A stretch of DNA of 59,657 nucleotides, filler included, from Squatina squatina (lineage: Eukaryota): NCBI GenBank assembly GCA_031763465.1. It is 3 parts of 3 records of this genome, joined end to end, with 100 filler letters (N's around TTAATTAATTAA, not from the genome) between each part and the next. Parts side by side here need not be neighbours in the genome. Positions count along the whole stretch, not along the records: positions 29,287 to 43,035 come from JARFOE010000057.1; 2 more parts are not named here. One strand, 5' to 3'. The notes under the pieces were generated by a model. The model saw only the letters and a program-made list of their open reading frames with translations. It was not told the DNA's origin and made no database searches. Positions 15,831 to 43,079 of this stretch are shown here, in pieces. The position numbers and the translations under genes are program-made. The stretch's first letter is position 1. Each line of letters starts with the position of its first letter.

Positions 15831-16035
15831 TTTTAAAATTGCCTTTATGTAAAGCATTTGGAGTTGAAAAACCTTGACTGCACAGATTGTGATCTGTGCT
15901 GAAAGAAACTGTTACCAAATAGAGGTATCTTGAGCAGTCTGTATTCAGTAAATTTCTGCACTAAGCTGATTCAACAGTACCTATTTTTACCTACCTATCC
16001 GTTCTTCCTGACGTATTTGTCCTTTTCTTTTAAAG

Positions 16036-16287
16036 ATGATTCTGAAGGAGGTGGATTCCTTGCTCTATGTGGACACAGATATTCTGTTTTTGCGTCCTAT
16101 GGATGATATATGGGCATTTCTTGAAGATTTCAATCATACTCAGATTGCTGGAATGGCACCAGAACACGAGGAGCCACGAATTGGCTGGTACAACCGTTTT
16201 GCCAGACATCCATATTATGGGAAGACTGGAATCAACTCTGGAGTTATGTTGATGAACATGACCCGCATCCGAAAAAAATATTTTAAG
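16036..16287 (+). CDS. GXYLT1: Glucoside xylosyltransferase 1 internal exon (GT8 family), 252 nt
   Basis: Pyrimidine tract + AAG acceptor, AAG|GTAAGT donor; [20 protein letters not shown]...[35 protein letters not shown] with DxD motif. Confidence 0.93.
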
Positions 16288-19200
16288 GTAAGTGTGTCTG
16301 GATTTCTTTTGGTCATGATTAAACTGCGGCAATATTTTGTGCACATTGTGGTTAGTTTGATCTATTGTACTTTAAAGGATGTAGGAAATAAATGAACACA
16401 TATTGGGATCCATCTGAGTTGATTATAGCTCAGTGTGTTTCCTCTTCATACCCTTGTGTTAGCCTGTTGTCTTTTAGTGTGGAAATTCCACTGTTGAATG
16501 ACTGTTGCTTTTGATTATTTAGTTGATAAATGTTTCAATATACAGTATGGTTTAATTGTATTTAATTTATAAAATAATACAATTATAAAATAAAATTGCC
16601 AGGACACAGCCGGCTAATAAAAATTACATAGTAACTGAATATATATTCTTCCTGGCTCCAATTTTAATGTTTAGCTTGAAATTTCTTTTTATCCCTCTTT
16701 TTTTTCCTGAAGATGCTGACTCATATTGTGCAGTTATATGGGACAAGCACTGTGTTGATCACAGTGTTTTTTTTGTGTATGAACCAAACAATGAGTATTG
16801 AGTGGGGTGGGGTGGGGCGGGGGGGATGGTATCACAGCCAAATCCAATCGTTTTCACGTCCAACATCCACATTCGTGCACTTTCCAGCAGCAGTCACTGG
16901 ATAGTGATCAAGGTGGGAACCCTGGCTGATATTCCCCTGTGCCAAAGTCCCTGCTAATAGAATTTAATCATTAAACAGCAGACCTTTTAACAAGTACCAG
17001 ATGATATCATTAGTTTGCAGCAGAATGATCAGAGTTTGTGACTAAATTAAAGAATCTTGGTATAGCAGATATTTTCCTAATTAATGACTGTAATCTCTAA
17101 TTACAATCTAGAAAGGTTCTGGAGGGTTGAATATTAGGAGTTACTTTGACCACCGGATGGCGCTATTAGGCTGTCCTTTGGCGCCACTGAAACTATTGTT
17201 GGCAGAGGGAAAAGGGTCTGATTACAATTTAAACATGGAATAAAGCTAATTACTGAATAGTGTTTGATATGTCACAAGCTCGTATAGTTTCAAATTGCTT
17301 TGTTTATCAACTGAAACACACGTAAAGATGATAAATTGGTTGCTTATTAAGATGGGGAAGCTGACTATAGTACTGTAATAGTTATTTTTTGGTGAGCTGT
17401 TAGATTTATGTAGCCATGCACTGCTCAGGTTTTCATCTGTTGTGTATAATTAGGAATACAGCCATCTTTTCTGTGGTGGAATCTGTACAGTATTAGATGG
17501 GAATATTTTCCCATCTACATAAGCACTTTTTCAAATTCATCATAATAATATGTACTTCAGATTTTTTTAACTGCGGAATGTTCAGCATCAAGGAACATTT
17601 TAATACTTGGTTGTCATTTTTATCAGCTATATGTTAGCAAAACGATTATCAACATTTATTTTGGTAATATTTTTGAGCCCTTTTGAATGGCAGAGCAAAA
17701 ATGGACCATTTAGTGTTCTGAATGGGCATCAGAATTGCTTGCCAGTTTGTTGAATTTGATGCCCATTTGGAGTACAACATGCTGAGAATTTAACAACCCC
17801 ACCCGGCCTCAGCATTGGAGATCAATCTAAATCTAAGGCCTTGTCAGATTTCAACCAATTTGGAGTCCAGCCCACAAAAATTCTGCTGCTGCCTCCCATA
17901 GTTTACCTGCACTTCCATAGTTGGCTTACAGTGGCTTTTTTCTGAATTGCATTGACTGCCACGGTATTGGGGGAAGGCTACAGACTTCTACCGTACTTGC
18001 AGTCTCACAAAACTGTCCTTAGACTGAACAGTGTAGTTCTTCCAAATGTGATAGGGACATTGCTGTCTGATTTCAGTCCTGCTTTGATAGTTAACAGTCT
18101 AAAATATTGACTGTTAATTTGCATTTGACCGTGTTCAGTTTGTTGTCTTTATAGTGTATATTGCAGGAAATGAATAGGTTTGTACCACTCTCTCAGGGCA
18201 ATAAATGCGGCTTGTGAAATTTAGAAAACCACATTTAAAATCTGTTACAAAAGTCACTCTTGGTGTTTAATGTCTGTTAAGTCACGTGACTACTGCATGA
18301 CATNNNNNNNNNNNNNNNNNNNNNNNNNNNNNNNNNNNNNNNNNNNNNNNNNNNNNNNNNNNNNNNNNNNNNNNNNNNNNNNNNNNNNNNNNNNNNNNNN
18401 NNNCGTGGGCCGAAGGGCCTGTTATGTGCTGTATTTTCTATGTTCTATGATTGTAGCAGATCTAGGTATTCAGATTATCCAGCCAATGCACTAACAGCCC
18501 ATCCCAAACCTCCAGGCCCATGTCATTCAAACAGGACAAGCCAGTGTGTAAGATGTATAAAGTGCAAATGGGACAAAGTTGGCTGGCTTCGTCAGCTGGA
18601 TTTTCCAGGGCTCAAAAGCCATCCCTGAATTTTGCAAATCACTCCCCTGACTATTAACGCTGGGACAGTGGAAAAGGGAAGCCACCTTAGACAGGTTTCC
18701 AAACAAATGATTGAAGCTTGTCACTTGATTAGTCAGCCACAGGGATTCTGCTTATCAACATCACACACCTGGTTGTTTTGATTTTGCAGTGCTGTCCTAG
18801 AGGCATTAGAGAATTGATCCTGCTGTTGCTGGACTATTTGTCAAAGGACATGTGATAATTTCCACAGATACGGGCAGAAATGCAATTGACATATTGACAT
18901 TGATCAGGGAATACTAGTGGGAAAAAGCATTGAGGATTGTTTTTCATTAACTTAACGTTTTCAGAATTTGTGCTCTGACTAGCAATATTATTTTAGATAC
19001 CACAAAAAAGGATTGGAGAATTGCTCAAAGTGTAATTGATTCAAATCTCGTCATTAAAGAAACAACTTCATCAAAACAGCTCTTGAGATTTTTTTAACCC
19101 TTTGCTTTATATTTAATTGTTTTGTGTCATTTCTGATTTTCTAGATGAATCTGAAAACCTTAGTAAAAACATGGCTTTGCAGAATGGCCCAATAGTAAAG

Positions 19201-40613: not shown

Positions 40614-42566
40614 CTATGGATGAGGGATTGATTAAGACAAGTAGAAAATAAATGATGCATGCACCAAACAATACACACACACCACACACACACACACACA
40701 CCAAAGACTGGCCTGCCATTCTCCTGCGACTTGTAACAGCTAAAGCAAGACAGCAGCTGAAGCAGAGGAGAGCTACAAGGCGTGACGAACAGTATACAAG
40801 TGAGAGAAGCATGAAAGGCAGTACAAAGCCTTTTGAGAGTCGAAAGTGTTGCTGCACGGATACTGAACAGTGTCTGACATCGAACACAGGACATCGATTA
40901 CCAAACTTAAAGTGAGAGTGTTGGGACAGGCTGCAGATTGGCAGCGATGAAGAGAAAGGCAAAAACAATATGCGTTTGCAGCTTAGCGACTGAATGCTCT
41001 GAATATCTAAAACACACACAATATAATAAATAAAGATTGCACAGTCAGGGTTCTCGCTAGGGTTTTAGAAACTCCTGGGGATTTGAAAAATCTCAAGGCT
41101 CATTTCACAGAAACAACTTTTAGAAAGCTCTTGATTTTGCACTATATTGTCTTGCATTAAATTTATATGATCGATGTACTTGCATTTTTTGCTTCAATTT
41201 AATACTTCCGAATGTAGTTTGTCGAATGTAAATCTGTTGCCCTCCCTCCCCCAACATAACACTCACACATGCACACGCCTGTGGTGGCACCTTTGGTAAT
41301 CCACAGTCAACAGCCCTGTAAATGTTAACATCCCACCGAAAGTCCAATGAGATGAGAACAAATTCAAGTTTCACATTAACGGGAACCCTGCAAGCGGCTA
41401 CCAGCGGAAAGAAGCAGGACAACATCGACACAACTGCTTGCGGTAAACTGCAGCACCCAGAGACCAAGGACAGCAGCTGGTTAGCTCAAATAACACAAGT
41501 GATTATGGCACAGTGCAAGCTGAGGTGCAGAGAGAAAGACGCCTCTATTTAACGTGTCCTGTTAAGTGCAGGATAATGGATACCTGTGGGGGGGGTGGTG
41601 TCACAGTTGTGGAATCCGGATTGGGAAATATCACTCAAATATATAGACATACAAGCTGTATGTGAAATTCCTCAGTGAGCATTTCACACTGGAGCGAGAG
41701 TCTGATCATTTCTTGGTGCTTCAGAAGNNNNNNNNNNNNNNNNNNNNNNNNNNNNNNNNNNNNNNNNNNNNNNNNNNNNNNNNNNNNNNNNNNNNNNNNN
41801 NNNNNNNNNNNNNNNNNNNNNNNNNNNNNNNNNNNNNNNNNNNNNNNNNNNNNNNNNNNNNNNNNNNNNNNNNNNNNNNNNNNNNNNNNNNNNNNNNNNN
41901 NNNNNNNNNNNNNNNNNNNNNNNNNNNNNNNNNNNNNNNNNNNNNNNNNNNNNNNNNNNNNTATTGGAATTCTTCTAAGGCCCTTAGCAAGGGTGGTGCT
42001 CTCGCTCTTAAGTTTTGCATTGGCTGTTGAACTGCTAACCGTCACCATTCCTGGCACTGCAGACTGGCAAACACGAACTACAACATCCCCTAGGATTGTT
42101 GATGATCCGCCTATCTGTAGCTGTCAGCTCGTTGCCTCTCTCCCATGTATTAATATTCAGCATTATACTTTTGTGACCCAGGAAGACCAATTATCTCTGC
42201 AACGTAGTTCTCCCTGACTGGCAGCACGAATTGTGGCATCTCATACTCAACCCATTGCTTTCTTTTGTCCACATCATTAATGAGTGTCCAAGATTGTAAA
42301 CTCTCTCCATTTCAAAATAGATTTTCAGATTTGGAAAGCATTTTGGACAAGTTTGGCAATGATGTGATTTGAAATTGGGAGTTAGGCAGGGATTTAGGTC
42401 ACCAACCCTCCAGGATTGGCTTGGCGTCTCCAGGACACTGGAGCAAAAGCAGGAGAAAAATAATCTGTGCCTTTTTTAATAAAATTAAAAATAAAATCTA
42501 TTAAGTTATCGTACTATTTTACTACAGCTAGTGCATGCAAAGCAAGAAGGTGAAAGGTCAAAGTAC

Positions 42567-42620
42567 CAGGTCAAAGGTTGCCTCGAGGGATCGCTTCAGT
42601 GATCTTACAGCTGGCTGAGT
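42567..42620 (-). CDS. MBNL3: Muscleblind-like 54-nt cassette exon
   Basis: TTAAG|TQPAVRSLKRSLEATFDL|GTAC, exactly 54 nt, homologous to MBNL1 TQSAVKSLKRPLEATFDL. Confidence 0.88.
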
Positions 42621-42765
42621 CTTAAATAACAGGCAGCGAGCACATGGATGGCAATGGGCCAATGGGGTTCAAGCGCATTAACATTAACAGCAAGCAGAGG
42701 TGCGTCATAGGGCAGCAATACATTGTGGGTGGGTGAAGAGAAAAAAAAACAATCTGAATGCATTA
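42621..42765 (-). promoter_or_regulatory. Intronic splicing-control region upstream of the 54-nt exon (AG-exclusion zone, YGCY cluster, distal pyrimidine tract)
   Basis: No AG on the minus strand from 42753 to 42623; TGCT/CGCT/TGCC motifs; U-rich tract about 110-130 nt upstream of the acceptor. Confidence 0.75.
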
Positions 42766-43079
42766 TACAACTTATTAAAAAGAACAAGCATGCATAACAA
42801 AAGGTGTTTACTACTGTTATCGTACAACCATATCATCACAAACAGACACCTTGCACTCTACGCAAGCGACCGTCACATAAATGTTTGGAATCACCAAAGG
42901 AAAAACTAACATTTGTGTCAAAAGAAAGCAAAAATGGGCCAGACAAACTTAAACACTTTGGGTGGGGAGGAGCTGTCACTGACGGTGTCATCAAAAACAC
43001 GAACTCGCCATGTGAGGAGCCGCAAACGCGGACTCNNNNNNNNNNNNNNNNNNNNNNNNNNNNNNNNNNNNNNNNNNNN

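What the first reader, a model, noticed from the sequence alone, without database searches (positions are those of the whole stretch)
42520..42765. MBNL3-like gene retains the MBNL1-type 54-nt regulated exon and its control region
Seen: intact 54-nt exon, a 131-nt AG-free zone upstream with YGCY motifs (TTAATGCGCTTGAACCCCATTGGCCCATTGCCATCCATGTGCTCGCTGCCTG), and downstream GTACTTTGACCTTTCACCTT plus an RBFOX TGCATG site (42539-42534). Established: in MBNL1/2 this exon controls nuclear localisation, is autoregulated from a highly conserved intron end with a distant branch point, and is mis-spliced in myotonic dystrophy; mammalian MBNL3 is generally described as lacking it. Inference: the circuit predates the vertebrate genome duplications and persists in this lineage's MBNL3. 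The exon has KRS where MBNL1 has KRP.
Basis: partly seen in the sequence, partly recalled or inferred. Interest (0 to 1): 0.7.

Follow-up and report, generated by a model that had tools for sequence, protein, structure and literature searches.

The report
Shark MBNL3 keeps known regulated exon
A shark-like fish's MBNL3 splicing-regulator gene still carries the small optional exon that likely lets these proteins control their own entry into the nucleus; this is the ordinary ancestral state, already published, which placental mammals lost.

Summary
The gene is MBNL3. Its constitutive exons fall outside the starred MBNL1 and MBNL2 clades, which hold the genome's two other paralogs, and FRMD7 lies next to it. 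The exon peptide matches annotated MBNL3 at 17/18, versus at best 15/18 for MBNL1 and 14/18 for MBNL2. It is not new. Spruce 2022 reports the exon in most non-eutherian Mbnl3 genes, and 32 of 143 MBNL3-class proteins retrieved include it, among them chimaera and ray proteins. Verbeeren 2023 traces the double-KR alternative exon across bilaterians, far older than vertebrate duplications. KRS is likely tolerated: S or T occurs at that position in 12 of the 32. Small additions: the distal intron end and a second, upstream TGCATG align with this genome's MBNL1. Inclusion and regulation in this species were not shown.

The parts
42567..42620 (-). 54-nt cassette exon (coding exon 5) of MBNL3; encodes the first KR of the bipartite nuclear localisation signal; S after KR
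   Evidence: frame, AG/GT; 17/18 to annotated MBNL3 exon, at best 15/18 to MBNL1, 14/18 to MBNL2
42623..42753 (-). 131-nt AG-free zone before the 3' splice site
   Evidence: 35 of 37,067 background intervals are as long
42632..42717 (-). cluster of 9 YGCY motifs, predicted MBNL silencer
   Evidence: function inferred from MBNL1 (PMC5082313)
42672..42677 (-). UGCGCU, the same hexamer as the central site most important for MBNL1 exon 5 dose response
   Evidence: PMC5082313 passages
42690..42695 (-). GCUUGC, the motif preferred in vitro by chicken and opossum MBNL3
   Evidence: read from the zone printed; PMC9084524 passage
42735..42752 (-). distal polypyrimidine tract, aligning with this genome's MBNL1 intron
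42761..42767 (-). candidate distant branch point (A near -143), predicted only; closer candidates exist near -84, -64 and -58
   Evidence: not mapped
42789..42794 (-). upstream TGCATG (RBFOX-type), present at the aligned place in this genome's MBNL1
42534..42539 (-). downstream TGCATG (RBFOX-type), 28 nt into the intron
   Evidence: paralog comparison impossible (MBNL1 stretch reads N)
40463..40613 (-). 151-nt exon 6 of MBNL3 with the second KR motif
39543..39578 (-). 36-nt exon 7 of MBNL3
29288..29642 (-). two FRMD7 exons (synteny marker, not part of the circuit)
   Evidence: (98% to shark FRMD7-like)

Best explanation
This is the 54-nt exon 5 of a cartilaginous-fish MBNL3 gene with a long AG-free, YGCY-rich intron end, and it likely works as the known MBNL feedback switch. 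Predicted mechanism: the spliceosome would start from a distant branch point and polypyrimidine tract about 115-145 nt upstream and scan the AG-free zone. When MBNL protein (MBNL1, 2 or 3) is abundant it would bind the YGCY cluster, block use of the 3' splice site and cause skipping. Skipping removes the first KR of the two-part nuclear signal (exon 5 KR, 19 residues, exon 6 KR), so the protein would become more cytoplasmic. When MBNL is scarce the exon would be included and the protein nuclear. RBFOX may tune this through the two TGCATG sites. Shown here: anatomy, paralog identity, and both included and skipped isoforms in annotations of relatives. Inferred: splicing in this species, branch point, MBNL and RBFOX action, localisation.
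For: MBNL3 identity: top hits of exon 6 are mostly MBNL3-named; tree of exons 2+6 puts C115 in MBNL1 (100/99), C80 in MBNL2 (99/99) and this gene nearest catshark MBNL3 at 97%; FRMD7 is adjacent. The exon peptide carries P3 and R6, seen in MBNL3 forms and not in the MBNL1 or MBNL2 forms retrieved. Included and skipped isoforms are both annotated in Narcine (P0002/P0004), Callorhinchus (P0244/P0017), Hemitrygon (P0130/P0231), Xenopus (P0009/P0005) and Amia (P0035/P0034). Anatomy matches the MBNL1 mechanism as described in PMC4176163 and PMC5082313. Non-eutherian MBNL3 prefers GCUUGC (PMC9084524), which the zone contains. Zebrafish mbnl1/2 exon 5 is MBNL-repressed (PMC8246264). Worm FOX-1 acts through an upstream GCAUG (PMC10773944).
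Against: No RNA evidence for this species. The YGCY excess vanishes under a dinucleotide shuffle (P=0.34). All true-shark MBNL3 proteins listed lacked the exon, though only 15 of 26 members of the main shark cluster were shown. The MBNL3 group itself is unresolved in the short tree (2 changes), so identity rests on exclusion, nearest rows, synteny and peptide. No paper found tests MBNL3 exon 5 regulation. A fold of the zone leaves the YGCY sites only partly unpaired (0.27-0.60).
Confidence: 0.8

Rival explanations
1. The exon is alternatively spliced but set mainly by other factors (RBFOX at the two TGCATG sites, or polypyrimidine-binding proteins at the distal tract), with the YGCY cluster secondary.
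For: Two TGCATG sites flank the exon, one aligned with the MBNL1 paralog; the YGCY count is not above a dinucleotide shuffle; FOX-1 regulates the worm exon in one cell type.
Against: Nine YGCY motifs including UGCGCU sit where MBNL1's silencer was mapped; MBNL loss alone raises mbnl1 exon 5 inclusion in zebrafish muscle.
Confidence: 0.09
2. The exon is decaying in this lineage, as in opossum, and is rarely or never included.
For: S instead of the P found in all 9 cartilaginous-fish proteins with the exon; no true-shark inclusion isoform among those listed; opossum exon 5 carries a stop (PMC9084524 legend).
Against: Open frame, intact splice sites, 17/18 peptide identity, intact zone; S or T at that position in 12 of 32 annotated MBNL3 inclusion isoforms.
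Confidence: 0.08
3. The 1.07-kb contig is a mis-scaffolded piece of MBNL1 or MBNL2.
For: The contig is bounded by N gaps (234 and 9,451 N). The MBNL1 exon position reads N (726 N), and no exon 5 is visible in the gapped MBNL2 intron.
Against: MBNL1 (C115) has its own, different copy of the upstream flank, 71% identical over 93 nt. The peptide is MBNL3-type, and only 14/18 to chimaera MBNL2. The flank shows no alignment to the visible MBNL2 intron (score 35; the C115 shuffle maximum was 48).
Confidence: 0.03

Closest known systems
Exon 5 (54 bp) of non-eutherian Mbnl3 (Spruce et al. 2022, PMC9084524)
   Same: Same gene, same exon, same position; peptide 17/18 identical to chimaera, stingray, caecilian and bird MBNL3 annotations.
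   Different: S for P after KR. The passages read do not name a cartilaginous fish and do not describe the intron; the species panel (S3B Fig) was seen only as a legend.
Autoregulated MBNL1/MBNL2 exon 5 (PMC5082313, PMC4176163, PMC8246264)
   Same: 54 nt, first KR of the bipartite signal, AG exclusion zone, YGCY cluster with UGCGCU, distal pyrimidine tract.
   Different: Different paralog; branch point and repression not shown here. Base-level identity with the human intron was not tested, as no tool supplied that sequence.
Bilaterian double-KR alternative exon, C. elegans mbl-1 exon 7 (PMC10773944)
   Same: KR on adjacent exons, first one alternative; upstream GCAUG present.
   Different: The worm exon encodes 75 residues; conservation is reported as limited to the KR motifs.

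Membership tests
MBNL3 orthologs | Groups apart from MBNL1 and MBNL2, while the genome holds separate MBNL1 and MBNL2 loci | tested here: met
   MBNL3 clade itself unresolved on 108 columns
MBNL3 orthologs | Synteny with FRMD7 (neighbour order recalled from human Xq26) | tested here: met
   16 of 19 hits named FRMD7 or FRMD7-like except two unnamed or hypothetical; the other 3 are unnamed fragments
MBNL3 orthologs | Synteny with RAP2C and HS6ST2 (recalled) | tested here: inconclusive
   Not found in 310 kb fetched, 33-54% N, nor by family searches (one search scored 150 of 297 candidates)
MBNL3 orthologs | Four CCCH zinc fingers | tested here: inconclusive
   Exon 2 (second finger) is on C57; exons 3-4 were not found and would lie in a 9,451-N gap
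MBNL exon 5 autoregulatory cassette | 54-nt in-frame exon encoding a KR, 19 residues before the exon 6 KR | tested here: met
MBNL exon 5 autoregulatory cassette | AG exclusion zone with YGCY cluster | tested here: met
   dinucleotide shuffle not significant
MBNL exon 5 autoregulatory cassette | Distant branch point in use | not testable with these tools
   Only candidates by motif
MBNL exon 5 autoregulatory cassette | Alternative inclusion in this species | tested here: inconclusive
   No RNA holder listed; both isoforms annotated in five other genera
MBNL exon 5 autoregulatory cassette | Skipping promoted by MBNL; inclusion gives nuclear protein | not testable with these tools
   Needs minigene and localisation assays

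The most novel reading that the evidence does not exclude
Shark MBNL3 preserves a near-ancestral copy of the whole exon 5 control module shared with MBNL1: distal tract, YGCY silencer and a previously unremarked upstream RBFOX site kept in both paralogs since the vertebrate duplications. RBFOX would then co-repress the vertebrate exon from upstream as FOX-1 does in worms, and paralog alignment would pinpoint the indispensable bases of the silencer mis-read in myotonic dystrophy.
Probability: 0.3. Interest if true: 0.35.

Novelty: new member of a known kind. Interest (0 to 1): 0.15.

Why it matters
Modestly. It confirms in a shark-like genome that MBNL3 began as a full, self-regulating MBNL paralog and that loss of the exon is a mammalian event, as published. 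The MBNL3 intron is a natural variant of the MBNL1 silencer, a standard myotonic dystrophy marker, so comparing paralogs could show which bases matter. It does not change current understanding.

Tried and rejected
RNA evidence: no RNA holder listed (two small-share runs of one study). A protein labelled Lampetra planeri MBNL1 with the exon (P0151) was rejected as evidence for jawless fish: it groups with pipefish MBNL1 (97/86) and looks like contamination. Searching the genome for paralogous copies of the zone found only this locus (one search gave 19 matches, and the 9 other loci returned did not align beyond background; 9 were not examined). Human MBNL1 intron text: no paper held the motifs; Gates 2011 is not held; the Hinman supplement with human-zebrafish intron alignments could not be read and may bear on conservation. 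Ras-family hits on C57 were RhoG-like and Ras-like, not RAP2. A single-sequence fold of the zone was uninformative. Two look-ups of earlier scan findings returned nothing. The reading 'KRS is a lineage novelty' was rejected.

Full report
Place. The window is a pack of three stretches; the finding lies in stretch 2 (29287-43035), which is G000:C57, window position plus 3,513,223. The assembly is gappy: 54% N in the 200 kb upstream. Nearest proteins of both genes in the stretch are from sharks and rays, so the animal is most likely a shark.

Observation. On the minus strand, 42567-42620 is a 54-nt open exon between AG and GT. The previous AG lies 131 nt upstream of the acceptor, and the zone holds 9 YGCY motifs, all within 100 nt of the exon. 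Of 37,067 inter-AG intervals in the window and fetched loci, 35 are as long; of 3,914 windows of 131 nt, 3 hold 9 or more YGCY (the background includes this locus). A mononucleotide shuffle reaches 9 in 1 of 10,000. A dinucleotide shuffle averages 7.9 (P=0.34), which counts against treating the motif number alone as proof. Nine of 10 other MBNL acceptors have 19-92 nt AG-free and 0-4 YGCY; MBNL2 exon 8 has 204 nt and 6.

Which paralog. The next exon (40463-40613) has three matches in the genome: C57, C80 and C115. Its best database hits are mostly MBNL3-named; 120 of 1,049 were listed. I built a tree from exons 2 and 6 only, with 24 hand-picked reference proteins and exon 5 left out. C115 falls in MBNL1 (100/99), C80 in MBNL2 (99/99), and this gene is nearest catshark MBNL3 (97% over 106 columns); the MBNL3 rows do not form a supported clade on so few columns. 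FRMD7 exons lie downstream in the same stretch. RAP2C and HS6ST2 were not found. Exons 3-4 were not found and would lie in a 9,451-N gap.

Mis-scaffolding. The MBNL1 locus reads N over its exon 5 position (726 N). Up to the gap edge it has its own copy of the upstream flank, 71% identical to ours over 93 nt (local score 84 against a shuffle maximum of 48 in 300). The two are therefore paralogous, not the same piece. MBNL2's intron shows no exon 5 between three small gaps, which leaves a small doubt. The peptide settles most of it: 17/18 to MBNL3 forms, at best 15/18 to MBNL1, 14/18 to chimaera MBNL2 and 10/18 to bowfin MBNL2.

Distribution. Of 283 MBNL proteins retrieved, 258 had the fourth finger motif; my patterns classed 143 as MBNL3, 98 as MBNL1, 8 as MBNL2 and left 9 unclassed. 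32 of the 143 include the exon. They come from chimaera, two rays, seven frog genera, a caecilian, birds (one record also labelled alligator), gars, bowfin, bonefish and a carp (names). A few of these carry an automatic 'protein 2' name but have MBNL3 sequence. Both isoforms are annotated in five genera; these are database models, whose RNA support I did not see. The residue after KR is P in 20, T in 8 and S in 4 of the 32; all 9 cartilaginous-fish proteins have P. True-shark proteins listed were all skipped forms, with 15 of 26 cluster members shown.

Literature. [quoted passage not shown] PMC10773944 (passages) finds the double KR on adjacent exons, the first alternative, in bilaterian phyla except Ambulacraria, shows autoregulation in C. 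elegans, and shows FOX-1 promoting skipping, with a conserved upstream GCAUG as the candidate site. PMC13044900 (passages) says human MBNL3 lacks e5 and is more cytoplasmic. PMC4176163 and PMC5082313 (passages) give the AG-exclusion-zone mechanism and the central UGCGCU. PMC8246264 (passages; supplement unreadable) shows zebrafish mbnl1/2 exon 5 repression. PMC5041496, PMC11837677 and PMC3595034 (passages) added nothing on MBNL3 exon 5; the last lists an MBNL1-MBNL2 paralogous noncoding element. Eight searches found no description of the MBNL3 intron control region or test of its regulation; the library lacks most subscription papers, including Gates 2011.

Mechanism. Most likely the standard MBNL feedback switch (0.8): a distant branch point (candidate A near -143, 8 nt before the last upstream AG; predicted), a distal pyrimidine tract, a YGCY silencer blocking the acceptor at high MBNL, skipping, loss of half the nuclear signal, more cytoplasmic protein. 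The zone has both UGCGCU and GCUUGC, the latter preferred by chicken and opossum MBNL3, so MBNL3 itself could bind. By the usual positional rule (recalled), the upstream TGCATG would favour skipping and the downstream one inclusion. None of these steps was shown for this species, since no RNA holder was listed.

Verdict. Real, correctly read and correctly assigned, but the expected ancestral state, already published and annotated. What is left is the description of the intron module in MBNL3 and one paralog-shared upstream RBFOX-type site. Interest 0.15.

Noticed in passing
proteins P0061, P0062, P0064-P0072, P0075: Twelve marsupial MBNL3 models from nine genera carry a different, arginine-rich 53-residue insert exactly where exon 5 sits; possibly a marsupial replacement exon, given that opossum exon 5 is reported to carry a stop.
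   Followed up: no
G000:C80 near 11437500-11437725 (L037): The acceptor of MBNL2 exon 8 also has a long AG-free run (204 nt) with 6 YGCY in the last 100 nt (boundary approximate).
   Followed up: partly
protein P0151: A record labelled Lampetra planeri MBNL1 groups with pipefish MBNL1 (97/86); probably contamination.
   Followed up: yes
window 29642-39543: MBNL3 exon 7 and the FRMD7 exons are only about 10 kb apart; MBNL3's later exons and RAP2C were not found between them, probably lost in gaps. A low-complexity tandem repeat fills 31955-34634.
   Followed up: partly
L065:667-1062 (G000:C57 near 3893700): An open frame is RhoG-like for about 60 residues and then switches to a Rab-like sequence (label recalled); possibly a chimeric assembly.
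   Followed up: partly
window 16012-16392 (+), and 49411-48914, 54510-54151, 55426-55136 (-): Open frames that look like a glycosyltransferase exon in stretch 1 and serpin exons in stretch 3 (labels recalled, not searched).
   Followed up: no
L057 (G000:C16:2430426-2430602) and L060 (G000:C328163): Two MBNL first coding exons lie on scaffolds other than the three MBNL loci, showing the genes are split in this assembly.
   Followed up: no
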